64,000 nt of DNA from Candidatus Methanomethylicaceae archaeon (GTDB lineage Archaea > Thermoproteota > Methanomethylicia > Methanomethylicales > Methanomethylicaceae), in assembly GCA_015660995.1 (NCBI GenBank), contig JACTUC010000009.1, positions 2,008 to 66,007 of the forward strand, in the 5' to 3' direction. Positions 9,292-27,493 of this stretch are shown piece after piece (within the stretch, counting starts at the first letter, position 1; the number at the start of each line of letters is the position of its first letter). The notes beneath the pieces were generated by a model that saw only the letters and a program-made list of their open reading frames with translations, made no database searches and was not told the origin of the DNA. A program made the translations under genes and the position numbers.

Positions 9292-10227
9292 TTGGCCGAC
9301 CTTATCTATGCGGTTATAAAGGCTTCTGCACGAAAAGGAACGCTTCTATCGGATCAGCAACTGATTGATCTTGCCTCATCTAAAGATCTGAAAGATCTCA
9401 TGAATAGGGTGAAAGATCGATACCCGAATCTATCTAGCGTGGCACTTACGCCAAAGGCTATCGAAGAGGGGCTTCTGCATTCTTACAGCCAAGAGATCAG
9501 CGAGTTTCAGAAAGCTGCCCCCGATATCTCTATGATTTTGAAGATTGTGCGGCGGGAAGTCGAGCAATGGGAAGCAGTAGAGCTACTCAAGACGAAGCTG
9601 GGGATAATAACCTCTAGCGGACAGAAGAGGGAAAAAGAAGACATCTCTGCTTTGCTCAAAGTTATGGGCTTCAGCATTGAAGCAAAAAAAGCAACTATGA
9701 TCTATGAGAAGTACAAAGTTCCAGCCCTAATCGACTCGGTATTTACGAGACAGAGGATTGTTGATCTGTCAGCGTCGCTTGCAAGGCTGGGTGGTGATAC
9801 GGAGGAAAAATTGAAAAAATTCCTGAGCTATAAGATTGATGTCTTCAACTTAGATTTGCTGATCAGGGGTCTCAAGAATGACATCGACAGGAATGCACTC
9901 TCGGAGCTGTTGATATACAATGGTGGCTCGGTCAAGAGCCAGACACTCAAGGAGGCTGTCAAGCAACCTACGATAGAAAAAGTACTTACCCTTATTGAGG
10001 GGGTAGGACTGCCTAAGGTGGAGAGTGCCAGGGATTTGGAAAGGTACTATGAGCAGACGGTCTCCAGATTAATGTCCAAGACTTATTACAACGGTTATCT
10101 TGAAGCTGGAGCCATCCTTGGCTACTTGGAACTCAAGTTGAGGGAGATAAGGGATATCATCAGAATAGCCAATGCCATCAGCAGAGGACTTGAACCGAAG
10201 AAGATCGTTCAAGAATTCATTTTTTAA
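9292..10227 (+). CDS. atpC: A-type ATP synthase subunit C (V-type d homolog)
   Basis: 311 aa. N-terminal YAVIKASARKGTLLSDQQL and C-terminal LGYLELKLREIRDIIRIANA resemble AhaC. The 3' end overlaps the atpI 3' end (convergent). Confidence 0.6.
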   Translation: MADLIYAVIKASARKGTLLSDQQLIDLASSKDLKDLMNRVKDRYPNLSSVALTPKAIEEGLLHSYSQEISEFQKAAPDISMILKIVRREVEQWEAVELLKTKLGIITSSGQKREKEDISALLKVMGFSIEAKKATMIYEKYKVPALIDSVFTRQRIVDLSASLARLGGDTEEKLKKFLSYKIDVFNLDLLIRGLKNDIDRNALSELLIYNGGSVKSQTLKEAVKQPTIEKVLTLIEGVGLPKVESARDLERYYEQTVSRLMSKTYYNGYLEAGAILGYLELKLREIRDIIRIANAISRGLEPKKIVQEFIF

Positions 10228-12169
10228 GGATTGGGAAATTTGTATTCAATTTGAAGGGGGAGAACATTACTCCTCCGTCCTCATAAAATCTGCTAAACCA
10301 TTCGTAGAAATGAAGCCTCAGGTCTTGTGCCAGCACGATTATCCCCTCCAGAAGAACCACAAAGACATTTCCCACCACTGCAAGCAGTATCCCTATGACA
10401 CCACCACCCACAAGGTCTCCCAGAACATAGAAGACCGTTGTAAGCATGACATGAGCAATCACCATTGCAAAGATACGGAGGTAAGATACCGTGTTGGAGA
10501 CGAAACGGACTATCGTGTCGAAGAGCTCGAAGCCCATCTCGCCAAGGGAGGATAGGCCCTCATGAATTCCATGGGCGAAGATGCTATAAACCGGTTTTGC
10601 GAGGAAAAAGAACAGGAGTGGCGCCAGTATCAAATATATTGGTCCTGACATCCAATTAATAAAGTTAATTCCATAAATCACAGCTACATAGATAGATGAT
10701 AGAAAGAATACCAACTTAGGAAGGCTAACTAAAAAAGCATCCACTTTCTTCTTCTGCAGCAGATTATTGACAACTCCCAGCACTATTCCGAGGCTGATTT
10801 GAAATACGCCCACAGCGAGTGCAAAGGTGAATACATTCATGATAGATGTGGAGCTAACCGAAATCTGTCCGTTGACTATTTCTACGATTCCAGCTGGTGT
10901 GAGGAGTCCACTGTAAATATGTTTGCCAAAAGCCTCGCCATACAGGGTAGCGCCCATAATGGCGCCGAACACGCCACAGATGATCAGATAAACCCCTATT
11001 TTTGAGAGCGATTTAGTATACCTGTAAAAAAGGAAGCCAAGCGCTGCAAGCATTAGACCGTGGCCGATATCTCCGAACATAAAGCCAAATATGATGGGAA
11101 AGCTGAGGGCAAGGATGGCTGTTGGATTCACCTCATTGTAGTTTGGCACCCCGTAGAGGTTGGTAACTGTATAGAAGGCTTTGAAAAACCTTGGATATTG
11201 ATATTTCACTGGAACCTTGGGCGAGGAATGTTCTTCTTGGATGAAGGAGATCATTCGACCATTCAGGGCCTTGCTCAGATCACTGATCAGCGAGTCACCC
11301 AATTTGCTGGGGACATAACCCTCCAGAACCTCCCACCGATCCTCCACAGAGGCTCTTTCCTTTATGTTGAGCACCGAGTAGGCGTCCGAGAGTAAAGAGT
11401 TCAGATAGTTGAGCCTCGGCATTAATAATGCAATGGATCTCTTTGATGAGGCTAGGCTCTCATCAAACTTCTGCTGGGAGGACTCAAATGTCTCCAGAAA
11501 TTGACCTATGGACGAATAATCAGCAGGCATTCCTTCGAGAGATTCCAAGAGAGAGTAACCCCTCTCTGAGGCAATCTGGAGTACACTTGTTCTGTCCCCT
11601 TTTAGGCATAGAACTAGGTAGATCATGGGTTCGCTGGTTATGATATAGTGTAAGCATGAGTCGGGAAGGGCAGGAGCTAAATCTGGAGTGTCCTCTTTCT
11701 TGGCATACAGGATGAGGGGTGTTAGCTTCTTGAAGGATTGCAGGAGATCCAATGACGCATGACCATCCGGGGCAGTAGCATATTTTTTCCACAGTTCAAA
11801 AATAGGTCTTGCCTTTGAGTCCTTCTGAATGCTTGCCTCTGTGTTTAGGATCTGTTTTTCGTATGATGAGATCTCCTTGTTCATCATGCTTATGAAGGAA
11901 GGCCAGTCTTCAGCCTCCAACACATAATGCTCATCGCCTTTGGCTGGATTGGTCTCCCCAATGATCAATGCGCTGGATTTGTTTATGACCTCTCTAAGCC
12001 TGGCTAGAAGATCTCTAACCAGTTCGCTCAGTTCGAAGGAAACTGATGCGTCAGCTTCCTTTAGTGTTAAGTGGAAGTCCCCATGCTTGTTTAATACATC
12101 CATGGCGAGCTCAGATTCGCTTTTCAAAAAGAGAATTTTTGCCTGGGACATCCGTTCTGGGCGTAGCAT
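10217..12169 (-). CDS. atpI: A-type ATP synthase subunit I (a-subunit)
   Basis: 650 aa with an N-terminal cytoplasmic coiled domain and a C-terminal multi-TM domain containing the conserved Arg region. Confidence 0.9.
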   Translation of the reverse strand: MLRPERMSQAKILFLKSESELAMDVLNKHGDFHLTLKEADASVSFELSELVRDLLARLREVINKSSALIIGETNPAKGDEHYVLEAEDWPSFISMMNKEISSYEKQILNTEASIQKDSKARPIFELWKKYATAPDGHASLDLLQSFKKLTPLILYAKKEDTPDLAPALPDSCLHYIITSEPMIYLVLCLKGDRTSVLQIASERGYSLLESLEGMPADYSSIGQFLETFESSQQKFDESLASSKRSIALLMPRLNYLNSLLSDAYSVLNIKERASVEDRWEVLEGYVPSKLGDSLISDLSKALNGRMISFIQEEHSSPKVPVKYQYPRFFKAFYTVTNLYGVPNYNEVNPTAILALSFPIIFGFMFGDIGHGLMLAALGFLFYRYTKSLSKIGVYLIICGVFGAIMGATLYGEAFGKHIYSGLLTPAGIVEIVNGQISVSSTSIMNVFTFALAVGVFQISLGIVLGVVNNLLQKKKVDAFLVSLPKLVFFLSSIYVAVIYGINFINWMSGPIYLILAPLLFFFLAKPVYSIFAHGIHEGLSSLGEMGFELFDTIVRFVSNTVSYLRIFAMVIAHVMLTTVFYVLGDLVGGGVIGILLAVVGNVFVVLLEGIIVLAQDLRLHFYEWFSRFYEDGGVMFSPFKLNTNFPILKK

Positions 12170-12188
12170 CCGGAAAACACCCAGGCAC

Positions 12189-12548
12189 TCACATGCTCAG
12201 CCATAATAGGATAGCGATTACCAATCCGTAAATAGCTAATGCCTCACAGAGTGTTACTATGAGAAATGCCCTGAAGAAGGTCTCGGGCTTCTCTGCCAAT
12301 GATGCCACGGCGGCCGATCCGGCTTTAGCTAAACTGTAGCCTGCTGCCAATGCTGGAAGACCTATAGCTATCCCCGCGGCTATTGCTAGAAAACCGGCAT
12401 TGGGGTTCGTTGTTGCAGCTGTCACTGGGACTTGGACAGCAGCCTGAACTGCCGATACCATTGTTACAAGCATGATTAATGGGACGATAGTCACGAGAAT
12501 TCCAAAGAGCAAATTGCGATTAGAAATGGATAGATCACTAATTTTCAT
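12189..12548 (-). CDS. atpK: A-type ATP synthase proteolipid subunit K (c-subunit)
   Basis: 119 aa. There is a glycine-rich hairpin [20 protein letters not shown], an ion-binding Glu in [15 protein letters not shown], and an N-terminal extension of about 45 aa that includes a TM segment. Confidence 0.85.
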
Positions 12549-12551
12549 ATG

Positions 12552-26573: not shown

Positions 26574-26575
26574 TC

Positions 26576-26890
26576 CTAGCCCTCCGTCCTGAACAGCCTA
26601 GCGAAGATTATCGTCCCCACAGTGCCAAGCACAAGCAGGGCTATCGCGGTGTCTCTCGCGAATCCAACATTGAAGAGCTCTGGGAGGGAGATGAGATAGA
26701 GACCGACCCCCGCTACGGTTGTGAAGGAACTGACCCCCATCAGCGCAGTCACAGCCTCTCCCTTCAGGGACAACCTCAAGGCTCCGAGACCTGCGATCGA
26801 GACTGCAACCATGAAGACCAAGGCTGCCCAGAAGAAGGCAGTCTCCGCGAAGTCGTTCAATATGTTAGGGGCGATCATTTTCCGAGCCAC
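26576..26890 (-). CDS. MrpF/MnhF-like subunit
   Basis: 104 aa with 3 TM segments, positioned after the MrpE-like gene as in mbhA-B. Confidence 0.5.
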   Translation of the reverse strand: MARKMIAPNILNDFAETAFFWAALVFMVAVSIAGLGALRLSLKGEAVTALMGVSSFTTVAGVGLYLISLPELFNVGFARDTAIALLVLGTVGTIIFARLFRTEG

Positions 26891-27180
26891 CCCTCCACAT
26901 GAGGCTCCATGGGTATGATTTCGCCCTTGGTTCTCGGATTGATTGAGCCAAGGAGGATCGTCTTGGCTTGCGAGTCCATGTCAATGACAACGGTTCCTGG
27001 AGTATAGGTGATGCTGTTTGCCAGCATTATTTGGGATGCTGTATGCTCAAATCCCATGTCTATTGTGATGAGGCACGGGTCAATGTCCCCATTCATGCAT
27101 CTCTTGCTGACGTCTATAATGGAACCTATTATCTCCCTTACCAACCTCAGCCAGTACCTTACTCCCCACACAAAACCCAT
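26875..27180 (-). CDS. MrpE/MnhE-like subunit (MbhA-like)
   Basis: ITYTPGTVVIDMD resembles the MnhE 'TLTPGT' signature. Confidence 0.6.
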   Translation of the reverse strand: MGFVWGVRYWLRLVREIIGSIIDVSKRCMNGDIDPCLITIDMGFEHTASQIMLANSITYTPGTVVIDMDSQAKTILLGSINPRTKGEIIPMEPHVEGWLGK

Positions 27181-27187
27181 GCTGGAT

Positions 27188-27493
27188 TCACCTTACAACT
27201 TTTTTCAGTTCGAGGATGAAATGCCGCCCACAATCCATATAGTAGCCCTCGCCACCTGGCATGACTTCTATCGCTATGGTGCGTTCCCTTCCGCTCCCAA
27301 CTGAGATATTGAGGTGCACCATTCTTCCGGAGATCTTCTTGTGAAGGTGCATCACCCCTTTGGAAGGATCGTCCAGAGAAATGGAATAGTTCAGGGCAGT
27401 CGCCACGTCCTTTGCTTTCTCATAGAGGGAGGGACCATTTGTATAGAAGTGCGCAAATAGCGTTGGCGCCATATAGCTACATAGCCCTCTCAA
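27188..27493 (-). CDS. Hypothetical protein, first ORF of the hydrogenase-ATPase array
   Basis: 101 aa soluble ORF, 7 nt upstream of the mrpE-like gene. I recognise no motif. Confidence 0.35.
   Translation of the reverse strand: MRGLCSYMAPTLFAHFYTNGPSLYEKAKDVATALNYSISLDDPSKGVMHLHKKISGRMVHLNISVGSGRERTIAIEVMPGGEGYYMDCGRHFILELKKVVR

What the first reader, a model, noticed from the sequence alone, without database searches (positions are those of the whole stretch)
10217..27493. About 17 kb co-oriented, gap-free array joining the Mrp-hydrogenase directly to the A1AO ATP synthase genes
There are 26 consecutive minus-strand ORFs. Every junction is either an overlap (mostly 4-nt ATGA/TGATG types) or a gap of 19 nt or less. 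The hydrogenase membrane subunit is followed after 12 nt by a 91-aa ORF and after 9 more nt by atpF-E-A-B-D-(53 aa)-K-I. The only sizeable non-coding DNA is the divergent promoter at 27494-27656. This strongly suggests one transcription unit encoding a complete minimal chemiosmotic chain: reduced ferredoxin to H2 with ion pumping, then ion-driven ATP synthesis. I am not aware of a described example of this hydrogenase-plus-ATP-synthase operon fusion.
Basis: partly seen in the sequence, partly recalled or inferred. Interest (0 to 1): 0.8.

Follow-up and report, generated by a model that had tools for sequence, protein, structure and literature searches.

The report
Hydrogenase and ATP synthase operon fusion
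In a methane-producing archaeon of the Methanomethylicia, the genes for an ion-translocating Ehb hydrogenase lie directly in front of most of the ATP synthase genes with no usable gap, an arrangement shared by its relatives but not by other archaea, which suggests (without proving) that the two machines are made from one messenger RNA.

Summary
There are 26 co-oriented minus-strand ORFs (10217-27493), and every junction is an overlap or a gap of 19 nt or less.

The window comes from a Methanomethylicia (Verstraetearchaeota) genome. The hydrogenase is an Ehb-type (group 4i) energy-converting [NiFe] hydrogenase, not Mbh. The 91-aa ORF is EhbP. It is followed after 9 nt by a Thermoproteota-type atpF-E-A-B-D-(53 aa)-K-I.

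The fusion is lineage-wide. It occurs in 11 of 11 related loci that have DNA beyond ehbP, and in 0 of 35 euryarchaeal Ehb loci.

One sister lineage has an ehb-less atp operon between the same flanking genes (ProRS and a 437-aa gene), with its own TATA box. So ehb sits exactly between the ancestral atp promoter region and atpF.

No conserved TATA box or terminator was found at the junction. Co-transcription is therefore likely but unproven.

- atpH and atpC lie on the opposite strand (8947-10227), so the unit is not a complete ATP synthase.
- The direction in which Ehb works (ferredoxin to H2, or the reverse) is only inferred.

I found no description of the linkage in the literature I could access, but the key primary papers were not available. 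The verdict is a new operon architecture of known machines, of moderate interest.

The parts
27473..27656 (.). Divergent intergenic region between the array and the 437-aa gene plus ProRS. It is the only sizeable non-coding DNA next to the array.
27502..27509 (-). TATA-like box TTTTTAAT, about 30-36 nt upstream of the ATG at 27472. This is the candidate operon promoter.
   Evidence: Relatives also carry a TATA-like element 20-50 nt upstream of this gene.
27188..27472 (-). First ehb-cluster gene (94 aa, no family match). It is conserved at the head of ehb clusters in Methanomethylicia and the outgroups L081 and L084.
26875..27180 (-). Ehb membrane subunit, MnhE-like
   Evidence: PF01899; NF004922, 102 bits, above cut-off
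26576..26890 (-). Ehb membrane subunit, MnhF-like
   Evidence: NF009254, below cut-off
26091..26573 (-). Ehb membrane subunit, MnhG-like
25837..26094 (-). Ehb membrane subunit, MbhD-like
   Evidence: PF13244
25470..25850 (-). Ehb membrane subunit, MnhC/NuoK-like
   Evidence: NF005618, 126 bits, above cut-off
23920..25473 (-). EhbF, the NuoL/MrpD-like antiporter subunit
   Evidence: PF00361. In one search the best NCBIfam hit is 'energy conserving hydrogenase EhbF' at 371 bits, below the 578-bit cut-off.
23606..23932 (-). Small Ehb membrane protein. Homologues in relatives carry PF27305 (MJ1308).
22742..23602 (-). MnhB-like double subunit (EhbH-I fusion)
   Evidence: The fusion in Methanomethylicales is stated in PMC9635834.
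22461..22742 (-). Small hydrophobic Ehb ORF (93 aa)
22001..22459 (-). Multi-[4Fe-4S] ferredoxin subunit
20908..22004 (-). Polyferredoxin, here split into two ORFs (21339-22004 and 20908-21342, GTGA overlap). It is a single gene in L001, L004, L005, L081, L088 and L090.
20417..20911 (-). NuoI-like 2[4Fe-4S] ferredoxin subunit
   Evidence: NF004914, 179 bits, above cut-off
19971..20420 (-). Hydrogenase small subunit (NuoB-like, EhbM)
18773..19969 (-). [NiFe] large subunit EhbN. Both CxxC nickel-binding motifs are intact (C77/C80 and C367/C370).
17726..18769 (-). NuoH-like membrane subunit (EhbO)
17438..17713 (-). EhbP, the last gene of canonical ehb clusters
   Evidence: PF10622, 4.5e-18
17429..17437 (-). 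9-nt ehbP-atpF spacer, the fusion junction. The spacer is -1 to 36 nt in relatives.
17129..17428 (-). atpF. It contains a T7 run at 17415-17421, inside codons 3-5.
16512..17132 (-). atpE
14744..16504 (-). atpA
13362..14747 (-). atpB
12719..13351 (-). atpD
12552..12713 (-). Conserved 53-aa coiled-coil ORF between atpD and atpK. A 40-69 aa ORF sits in this position in all Thermoproteota loci examined.
12189..12548 (-). atpK (c subunit). It is a single hairpin with a conserved N-terminal hydrophobic extension. The ion site, [10 protein letters not shown], lacks the Na+ motif.
10217..12169 (-). atpI (a subunit), the last gene of the array
9292..10227 (+). atpC (AC39/d subunit) on the opposite strand. 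It is convergent with atpI and overlaps it by 11 nt.
8947..9273 (+). atpH (peripheral-stalk subunit H) on the opposite strand
   Evidence: NF006256, 1.5e-9; TIGR02926, 4.6e-8; both below cut-off. A 107-114 aa ORF is conserved at this position.
8148..8945 (+). TrmI/GCD14-type tRNA methyltransferase gene, which heads the trmI-atpH-atpC unit

Best explanation
**What it is.** The window is from a Methanomethylicia (Verstraetearchaeota, Thermoproteota) methanogen. The array is a complete ehb cluster fused head-to-tail to the Thermoproteota-type core ATP synthase operon.
- The ehb cluster has 18 ORFs and encodes an Ehb-type, group 4i energy-converting [NiFe] hydrogenase. It includes an Mrp-like membrane module, polyferredoxins and EhbP.
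- The ATP synthase part is atpF-E-A-B-D-(53 aa)-K-I.

**How it arose (inferred).** In the ancestor of this clade, the roughly 10-kb ehb cluster came to lie exactly between the atp promoter region and atpF. That promoter region is divergent from the 437-aa gene and ProRS.

**How it is expressed (inferred).** atpF no longer has a canonical promoter of its own. The eight atp genes are most likely transcribed by read-through from the TATA box at about 27505, as the distal part of a roughly 17-kb polycistronic mRNA. Each internal gene is translated from its own Shine-Dalgarno-like site or by overlap coupling.

**What it does (inferred).** This co-regulates an ion-translocating ferredoxin:H+ oxidoreductase with the H+-type A1AO ATP synthase that shares its ion gradient. 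In an H2-dependent methyl-reducing methanogen, the most likely mode is the one proposed for Methanosphaera. Reduced ferredoxin is re-oxidised by Ehb to H2 with ion export, and the gradient drives ATP synthesis.

**Shown versus inferred.** Shown here: the gene identities, the tight junctions, the clade-wide conservation, the flanking synteny with an unfused relative, and the absence of a TATA box at the junction. Inferred: the single transcript, the direction of Ehb catalysis, and the coupling ion.
For: - **Gene content and order:**. The array is collinear with euryarchaeal ehb clusters from the MnhE-like gene through EhbP.
- **Taxonomy:**. There are 100% matches to proteins labelled 'Candidatus Methanomethylicaceae archaeon' and 73-77% to Methanomethylicus and Methanosuratincola.
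- **Junctions:**
- **Conservation of the fusion:** 7 of 7 in-clade loci with DNA beyond ehbP carry it. So do 4 more loci: L087, L088, L090 and L091. The ehbP-atpF spacer is -1 to 36 nt throughout.
- **Absence elsewhere:** 0 of 35 euryarchaeal Ehb loci with at least 2.5 kb downstream carry it.
- **Unfused relative with the same flanks:** L089 reads ProRS <- 437-aa homologue <- | ~200 nt | -> atpFEABD-x-KI -> <- atpC <- atpH <- trmI.
- **Promoter contrast:** atpF has a TATA box 20-40 nt upstream where it is the first gene (L089, L092, L093). No conserved TATA-like element or T-run lies in the 420 nt upstream of atpF in 8 fused loci. In the window, the only sense-strand TATA-like hexamer well placed before a start codon is at 27508.
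- **Translation signals:** GGAGG or GGTG-type motifs precede nearly all internal genes.
- **Active site:** the NiFe ligands are intact.
- **Coupling ion:** the c subunit lacks the Na+ motif. This agrees with the H+ prediction attributed to Vanwonterghem 2016 in PMC5754280.
- **Published model:** Ehb as the coupling site in H2-dependent methyl reducers, and re-oxidation of reduced ferredoxin by Ehb or an Fpo-like complex in Verstraetearchaeota: PMC7485788, PMC7374477, PMC6019823, PMC5754280.
Against: - There are no transcript data. Archaeal promoters can lie inside coding sequence.
- A non-conserved TATATA at 17727-17732 (the 3' end of ehbO) could start a transcript just inside ehbP.
- L090 has a TTATAG in its 36-nt spacer.
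- An A-rich stretch 45-55 nt upstream of atpF (AAACTAAATAAGG in L001, L004, L010 and L055) cannot be excluded as a weak promoter.
- ATP synthase is normally needed at much higher copy number than Ehb. That argues for an extra promoter or for RNA processing.
- atpH and atpC are transcribed separately, so ATP synthase expression is not governed by one unit alone.
- The characterised role of Ehb in Methanococcus is anabolic, H2 to reduced ferredoxin. Some Methanomethylicia MAGs are reported to lack MvhADG/HdrABC, the presumed source of reduced ferredoxin.
- One related lineage lives with the two clusters unlinked.
Confidence: 0.6

Rival explanations
1. The genes are adjacent but are two transcription units. 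A promoter embedded in the ehbO/ehbP coding sequence, or an RNA-processing site, gives the atp genes their own, more abundant mRNA. The tight spacing then reflects genome compaction only.
For: - TATATA at 17727-17732.
- TTATAG in the L090 spacer.
- An A-rich motif 45-55 nt upstream of atpF in several relatives.
- The general need for more ATP synthase than Ehb (established knowledge).
Against: - None of these elements is conserved across the 8 aligned fused loci.
- The spacer is too short (-1 to 30 nt in most loci) to hold a TATA box plus a start site.
- atpF is preceded by a Shine-Dalgarno-like sequence, like an internal gene.
- Unfused relatives show a clear TATA box that is missing here.
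- There is no stable RNA structure at the junction (z = -0.47).
Confidence: 0.3
2. The genes form one unit, but Ehb runs in the anabolic direction, as in Methanococcus. It uses the ion gradient to reduce ferredoxin with H2. The operon would then couple two consumers of the gradient (or an ATP-hydrolysing ATPase with Ehb). The Fpo/Hfo-like complex encoded next door would be the real energy-conserving pump.
For: - The anaplerotic role of Eha and Ehb is cited in PMC7374477 and PMC9635834.
- Six Yellowstone Methanomethylicia MAGs lack hdrABC and mvhADG.
- Cultured strains consume H2 (abstract).
- An 11-subunit Nuo/Fpo-like complex lies at 1474-7625.
Against: - The original genome descriptions report mvh and hdrABC, and propose Ehb or the Fpo-like complex as oxidisers of reduced ferredoxin.
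- The Methanosphaera and Methanofastidiosa models use Ehb catabolically.
- Fusion to the ATP synthase, found only in this methyl-reducing clade, fits a recruited catabolic role better. That last point is inference only.
Confidence: 0.35
3. The fusion is a frozen accident. A rearrangement dropped ehb between the atp promoter and atpF. It persists because any break would leave the essential atp genes without a promoter, not because co-expression is advantageous.
For: - The flanking synteny shows a simple insertion or relocation at one site.
- A sister lineage (L081 and L089) manages with unlinked clusters.
Against: - The fusion persists across lineages as diverged as 62% EhbN and 66-73% AtpA/B identity, with the spacer kept minimal.
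- The L089 lineage shows that separation is possible, yet it is seen only once.
- This explanation is compatible with co-transcription. It disputes only that the fusion is adaptive.
Confidence: 0.2

Closest known systems
Ehb energy-converting hydrogenase of Methanobacteriales and Methanococcales (ehbA-Q; group 4i [NiFe])
   Same: - The gene order runs from the MnhE-like gene through EhbF, the ferredoxins, EhbM, EhbN and EhbO to EhbP.
- EhbN is 50-55% identical.
- The NiFe ligands are intact and an EhbP domain is present.
   Different: - Here the cluster continues without a break into atpF.
- In 35 of 35 euryarchaeal loci nothing related to the ATPase follows within 2.5-8.7 kb.
- No EhbQ was seen after EhbP.
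- EhbH and EhbI are fused, and the polyferredoxin is split in this window.
Proposed Ehb-based energy conservation in Methanosphaera stadtmanae (Thauer et al. 2008, as cited in PMC7485788, PMC7374477 and PMC6019823)
   Same: It is an H2-dependent methyl-reducing methanogen without Mtr-based coupling. Ehb is proposed to oxidise reduced ferredoxin to H2 and build the gradient used by the A1AO ATP synthase.
   Different: - In Methanosphaera, ehbA-P (Msp_1457-1442) is a stand-alone cluster, and the gradient is thought to be Na+.
- Here the c subunit looks H+-type, and the genes are fused to atp.
Mbh plus A1AO 'simple respiratory system' of Pyrococcus and Thermococcus (Sapra et al. 2003; cited in PMC9723716)
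   Same: The concept is the same: ferredoxin-dependent H2 evolution coupled to ion translocation, which feeds an A-type ATP synthase.
   Different: - Mbh is group 4d rather than 4i.
- From memory, its genes are not linked to the atp operon.
- The Thermococcales atp operon has the euryarchaeal order H-I-K-E-C-F-A-B-D (from memory).
Thermoproteota (crenarchaeal-type) atp operon atpF-E-A-B-D-(small ORF)-K
   Same: The core order matches that in a Bathyarchaeota locus (L092), a Desulfurococcales locus (L093) and the unfused Methanomethylicota locus L089. atpH-atpC sits elsewhere or on the other strand.
   Different: In those lineages atpF is the first gene, with a TATA box 20-40 nt upstream. Here it is the nineteenth gene of the array.

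Membership tests
Ehb-type (group 4i) energy-converting [NiFe] hydrogenase | Large subunit with both CxxC nickel-binding motifs (L1 RxCGxCxxxH, L2 DPCxxC) | tested here: met
   KVCGICSNVH and DPCLTC are present. They are invariant in a 20-sequence alignment.
Ehb-type (group 4i) energy-converting [NiFe] hydrogenase | Large subunit closest to known EhbN rather than to Mbh, Ech or Eha | tested here: met
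   The nearest named homologues are 'energy-converting hydrogenase B subunit N' and Methanobacterium hydrogenase large subunits, at 50-55% identity. Other group-4 loci score 34-39%. No formal phylogeny or HydDB classification was run.
Ehb-type (group 4i) energy-converting [NiFe] hydrogenase | Collinear ehb gene cluster that includes EhbF (NuoL/MrpD-like), polyferredoxin, NuoB-like, NuoH-like and EhbP | tested here: met
   Pfam and NCBIfam hits. EhbP scores 65.5 bits against a cut-off of 27. The order is collinear with about 45 euryarchaeal ehb loci. The EhbF equivalog is the best hit but falls below its cut-off (371 against 578 bits).
Ehb-type (group 4i) energy-converting [NiFe] hydrogenase | Ion-coupled ferredoxin:H+ oxidoreductase activity | not testable with these tools
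   Biochemistry is required.
A1AO (archaeal A-type) ATP synthase | Catalytic A and B subunits, central-stalk D and F, peripheral-stalk E, proteolipid K and stator I | tested here: met
   All were found in the array with scores above the Pfam cut-offs.
A1AO (archaeal A-type) ATP synthase | Subunits C (d) and H also present | tested here: met
   atpC is at 9292-10227 (PF01992, 98.6 bits). atpH is at 8947-9273 (NF006256, 1.5e-9, below cut-off). Both are on the opposite strand, outside the array.
A1AO (archaeal A-type) ATP synthase | Coupling-ion site in the c subunit (Na+ motif: Q in helix 1 plus E-S/T in helix 2) | tested here: not met
   Helix 2 reads [10 protein letters not shown] and helix 1 has no Q. 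This predicts H+ coupling. The motif rule comes from established knowledge.
Single polycistronic operon | Co-orientation with no intergenic space for a promoter or terminator | tested here: met
Single polycistronic operon | Absence of internal promoter and terminator signals at the ehb-atp junction | tested here: inconclusive
   There is no conserved TATA box or T-run. The bacterial-type scans are at background level. However, non-conserved TATA-like hexamers exist (17727-17732; the L090 spacer), and archaeal promoter prediction is weak.
Single polycistronic operon | A transcript that spans the junction | not testable with these tools
   No transcript data were accessible.

The most novel reading that the evidence does not exclude
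In Methanomethylicia, the ATP synthase core genes have had no promoter of their own since the ancestor of the clade. They are expressed only as the tail of the Ehb hydrogenase mRNA. ATP synthase production would then be subordinate to hydrogenase regulation, and the two complexes would form an obligatorily co-expressed, perhaps physically associated, hydrogen-linked chemiosmotic module. This would be genomic evidence that Ehb was recruited from an anabolic to a catabolic coupling role in these methyl-reducing methanogens.
Probability: 0.35. Interest if true: 0.65.

Novelty: new variant of a known kind. Interest (0 to 1): 0.5.

Why it matters
How Methanomethylicia conserve energy is an open question. 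They are methanogens outside the Euryarchaeota and were cultured only recently. Published models leave open whether Ehb, an Fpo/Hfo-like complex or an Ehd complex is the coupling site.

A clade-wide fusion of ehb to the ATP synthase operon is a genomic argument that Ehb is tied to ATP synthesis in this group. The atp promoter is apparently replaced by the hydrogenase cluster.

The fusion also gives a simple test on the existing cultures: check for a transcript across the ehbP-atpF junction and measure the ehb/atp expression ratios.

Finally, it is a clean example of operon growth by insertion of a whole 10-kb cluster between a promoter and its first gene, and a natural 'unfused' comparison lineage is available.

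Tried and rejected
- **Bacterial sigma-70 and intrinsic-terminator scan of 9000-28000.** Counts were at or below shuffle expectation (14 against 14.9; 10 against 14.3). No minus-strand site fell in 17438-17726. The models are also inappropriate for archaea.
- **Depletion of TATA-like hexamers on the sense strand of the array.** The array has 9 against 23 expected. This looked like evidence against internal promoters, but the other genes of the window show the same depletion (21 against 40). It is therefore not specific.
- **RNA fold of the ehbP-atpF junction.** No unusual structure was found (z = -0.47).
- **Rfam and tRNA scans of the window.** Nothing was found.
- **The T7 run at 17415-17421 as a terminator separating the units.** Rejected, because it lies inside atpF, so every atpF mRNA must read through it.
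- **Recent horizontal transfer of ehb.** GC content is even across the array. The EhbN identities mirror the AtpA/B relationships: L081 and L090 are sisters, as are L089 and L090. PMC9635834 roots the Ehb tree at Methanomethylicales. There is no sign of recent transfer.
- **Literature.** Nine full-text searches and eleven papers were read. None mentions an ehb-atp linkage. Vanwonterghem 2016, Borrel 2019, Kohtz 2024 and Wu 2024 are not held, so prior description cannot be excluded.
- **AtpE homology search.** It reached only Methanomethylicia. Outgroups were reached with AtpB instead.

Full report
**1. Observation**

Twenty-six consecutive minus-strand ORFs run from 27493 to 10217. The stated gaps are correct: 12 nt at 17713/17726, 9 nt at 17428/17438 and 19 nt at 12169/12189.

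Two apparent large overlaps are artefacts of taking the longest ORF:
- With the ATG at 20911, the -118 nt overlap becomes a 4-nt ATGA overlap.
- With the ATG at 22459, the -29 nt overlap becomes a 1-nt gap.

The first gene most likely starts at the ATG at 27472, because its N-terminus M(A)PTLFA(R/H)F is conserved in relatives.

Outside the array, only 21 of 56 junctions in this window are co-oriented with a gap of 19 nt or less. Twenty-five in a row is therefore far beyond chance, at about 2e-11.

**2. Identity of the genes**

Pfam and NCBIfam show that 27472-17438 encodes the following, in order:
- an Mrp-like membrane module (MnhE-, F-, G-, MbhD-, MnhC-like subunits, a NuoL/MrpD-like subunit whose best NCBIfam hit is EhbF, and a fused MnhB-like subunit);
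- three to four ferredoxin or polyferredoxin proteins;
- a NuoB-like small subunit;
- a [NiFe] large subunit with both CxxC motifs intact;
- a NuoH-like subunit;
- as the 91-aa ORF, EhbP (PF10622, 65.5 bits).

The large subunit's nearest named homologues are annotated EhbN. It is 73-77% identical to Candidatus Methanomethylicus and Methanosuratincola, and 50-55% identical to Methanobacterium and Methanobrevibacter. The cluster is collinear with about 45 euryarchaeal ehb clusters. The hydrogenase is therefore Ehb (group 4i in the nomenclature quoted in PMC7374477), not an Mbh-type enzyme.

Downstream come atpF, E, A, B, D, a conserved 53-aa ORF, atpK and atpI.

AtpE and AtpB have 100% matches labelled 'Candidatus Methanomethylicaceae archaeon'. 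The window therefore comes from a Methanomethylicia (Verstraetearchaeota) genome.

**3.

The ATP synthase is not wholly inside the array. On the plus strand, immediately downstream of and convergent with atpI (11-nt overlap), lie three genes:
- a TrmI-type tRNA methyltransferase gene (8148-8945);
- a 108-aa gene matching ATP synthase subunit H (8947-9273; NF006256 at 1.5e-9 and TIGR02926, both below cut-off);
- atpC (9292-10227; PF01992).

The trmI-atpH-atpC unit is conserved in relatives. At least two transcription units are therefore needed for a complete enzyme.

**4. Conservation**

A scan of one genome per species with an EhbN alignment returned 80 loci. I mapped all window proteins onto them.
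- All 7 Methanomethylicia loci with DNA beyond ehbP continue directly into atpF-E-A-B-D-x-K-I.
- None of the 35 euryarchaeal Ehb loci with at least 2.5 kb downstream has any ATPase gene there. These are Methanobacteriales, Methanofastidiosa, Hadarchaeota and a 'Thermococci' MAG.

Four further fused loci came from context look-ups: L087, L088, L091 and the more distant L090, which has EhbN 62% and AtpB 73% identical. The ehbP-atpF spacer across all fused loci is -1 to 36 nt.

**5. The unfused relatives and the origin of the fusion**

Two outgroup-level Ehb lineages end at EhbP and are followed by unrelated genes. These are L081-83 (EhbN 63% identical) and L084-86 (58%).

L089 (AtpB 78% identical) has no ehb in front of its atp operon. 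Yet it has the same flanks as the window: ProRS and a homologue of the 437-aa gene lie divergent from atpF across about 200 nt, with atpC-atpH-trmI convergent at the far end. The roughly 10-kb ehb cluster in the window therefore sits exactly between the ancestral divergent promoter region and atpF.

In an AtpA+AtpB neighbour-joining tree (1039 columns), L089 (unfused) and L090 (fused) are sisters with 68% bootstrap support. Together they are sister to the core fused clade. EhbN of L081 is closest to that of L090 (78.8%), and L081 and L089 share a low GC content of 43-44%. L081 and L089 therefore probably represent one lineage in which ehb and atp are unlinked.

Two histories each need two events: one ancestral fusion with a later separation, or two independent fusions at the same site. 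I favour the first on mechanistic grounds, but this is inference.

In a Bathyarchaeota locus (L092) and a Desulfurococcales locus (L093), atpF also heads the operon.

**6. Is it one transcription unit?**

Putative promoters in this window show TATA-like boxes (TTTAWA, TATAWA, TTTTTAAT) about 25-40 nt upstream of start codons. On the sense strand of the array, the only such hexamer well placed before a start codon is at 27508, 36 nt before the ATG at 27472.

Where atpF is the first gene, a TATA box lies 20-40 nt upstream:
- L089: TTTAAAAG
- L092: TCTATAAAC
- L093: CCTATAAAC

In an alignment of 8 fused loci, the 420 nt upstream of atpF is ehbO/ehbP coding sequence with no conserved TATA-like element or T-run. 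Nearly every internal gene, atpF included, is preceded by a GGAGG or GGTG-type motif or overlaps its predecessor. From established knowledge of archaeal operons, that is the pattern expected for internal genes.

Several caveats apply:
- A non-conserved TATATA at 17727-17732 could start a transcript just inside ehbP.
- L090 has a TTATAG in its 36-nt spacer.
- An A-rich, lysine-coding stretch lies 45-55 nt upstream of atpF.
- The T7 run at 17415-17421 lies inside atpF, so it cannot separate two units.
- The bacterial-type scans and an RNA fold of the junction were uninformative.
- Depletion of TATA-like hexamers is genome-wide, so it is not evidence here.

Co-transcription from the promoter at about 27505 is the best-supported reading, but it is unproven.

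**7. Function**

For the Verstraetearchaeota, the original genome paper is summarised as proposing three things: Mvh-Hdr reduces the heterodisulfide, reduced ferredoxin is re-oxidised by Ehb or an Fpo-like complex, and the ATP synthase is H+-coupled (PMC5754280; PMC7289024). The c subunit here ([10 protein letters not shown], with no Q in helix 1) lacks the Na+ motif, which agrees with H+ coupling.

For other H2-dependent methyl reducers (Methanosphaera, Methanofastidiosa), Ehb is the proposed coupling site.

The experimentally characterised role of Ehb is anaplerotic, running from H2 to reduced ferredoxin at the expense of the gradient. Some Methanomethylicia MAGs are reported to lack MvhADG/HdrABC. 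Cultured strains consume H2. The direction therefore remains open. I rate the catabolic reading as somewhat more likely in this clade, because the fusion to atp is specific to it.

**8. Literature and novelty**

None of the accessible papers mentions the linkage. This includes a detailed comparative study of Ehb clusters that used M. mesodigestum (PMC9635834), which has zero occurrences of 'ATP synthase' or 'ATPase'. The primary genome and cultivation papers are not held, so prior mention cannot be excluded.

Both complexes, and the idea of a hydrogenase plus ATP synthase chain, are known. What appears new is the operon architecture, its clade-wide conservation, and the demonstration that ehb occupies the former promoter-proximal position of the atp operon. 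I classify it as a new variant of a known kind, with interest about 0.5.

**9. Context seen in passing**

The first 7.6 kb of the window encode an 11-subunit Nuo/Fpo-like complex. Its NuoD-like subunit retains both NiFe CxxC motifs. PMC7886697 calls this complex Hfo-like (group 4g) in M. mesodigestum. Within 28 kb, this genome therefore places two group-4 hydrogenase-type complexes around the ATP synthase genes. The rest of the window holds housekeeping genes.

Noticed in passing
window 1474-7625: This region holds an 11-subunit Nuo/Fpo-like complex in two divergent operons: nuoJ/K/L-like genes on the minus strand and nuoA-B-C-D-H-I on the plus strand. The NuoD-like protein (5131-6270) keeps both NiFe CxxC motifs (RVCGICTSAH and DPCFAC), so it looks like the 'Hfo-like' group-4g hydrogenase described for M. 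mesodigestum in PMC7886697. Together with ehb and atp, it forms a roughly 28-kb bioenergetic island. nuoA-B-C is also near trmI in L088, but in a different orientation, and it is absent from that position in L087 and L089-L091.
   Followed up: partly
window 8148-10227 (+): trmI, atpH and atpC form a tight unit, with gaps of 1 and 18 nt. The unit is convergent with atpI, and the atpC and atpI coding ends overlap by 11 nt. No T-run lies within 200 nt downstream of either stop codon, so the two transcripts may overlap as antisense. The pairing of a tRNA m1A methyltransferase gene with two ATP synthase genes is conserved in L002, L004 and L087-L091.
   Followed up: partly
window 12552-12713 (-): A 53-aa coiled-coil ORF lies between atpD and atpK. 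An ORF of 40-69 aa occupies the same position in every Thermoproteota atp locus examined, including the Bathyarchaeota locus. It matches no Pfam or NCBIfam family. It may correspond to the small 'epsilon' gene of the Sulfolobus operon (from memory, not tested).
   Followed up: partly
window 12189-12548 (-): The c subunit is a single hairpin preceded by a conserved N-terminal hydrophobic extension of about 45 residues that resembles a signal peptide. Its ion site lacks the Na+ motif. A Mrp-module hydrogenase paired with an H+-type c ring raises the question of which ion Ehb moves here.
   Followed up: partly
window 20908-22004 (-): The Ehb polyferredoxin is split into two ORFs (GTGA overlap at 21342) in this window and in L002, L003 and L087. 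It is a single gene of 340-363 aa in L001, L004, L005, L081, L088 and L090.
   Followed up: partly
L064 1-11100 (Candidatus Geocrenenecus huangii): AtpA/AtpB-like hits lie about 7 kb upstream of, and on the opposite strand from, a different group-4 hydrogenase cluster (large subunit 37% identical). This is another, looser hydrogenase-ATPase neighbourhood in a Thermoproteota genome.
   Followed up: no
window 17415-17421 (-): A run of seven T residues on the sense strand lies in codons 3-5 of atpF. It sits within a small hairpin that includes the atpF start codon (GAUGAAA/UUUCAUC). The run is identical in L004 and L010. It could modulate read-through or translation, but it cannot separate the two gene sets.
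   Followed up: partly
L081 12604-13306; L083 9875-10577: In the unfused sister lineage, ehbP is followed after about 75 nt by a ribosomal protein L13e gene, then by a HycI-type hydrogenase maturation protease gene on the opposite strand. No maturation protease gene is seen next to ehb in the window.
   Followed up: no
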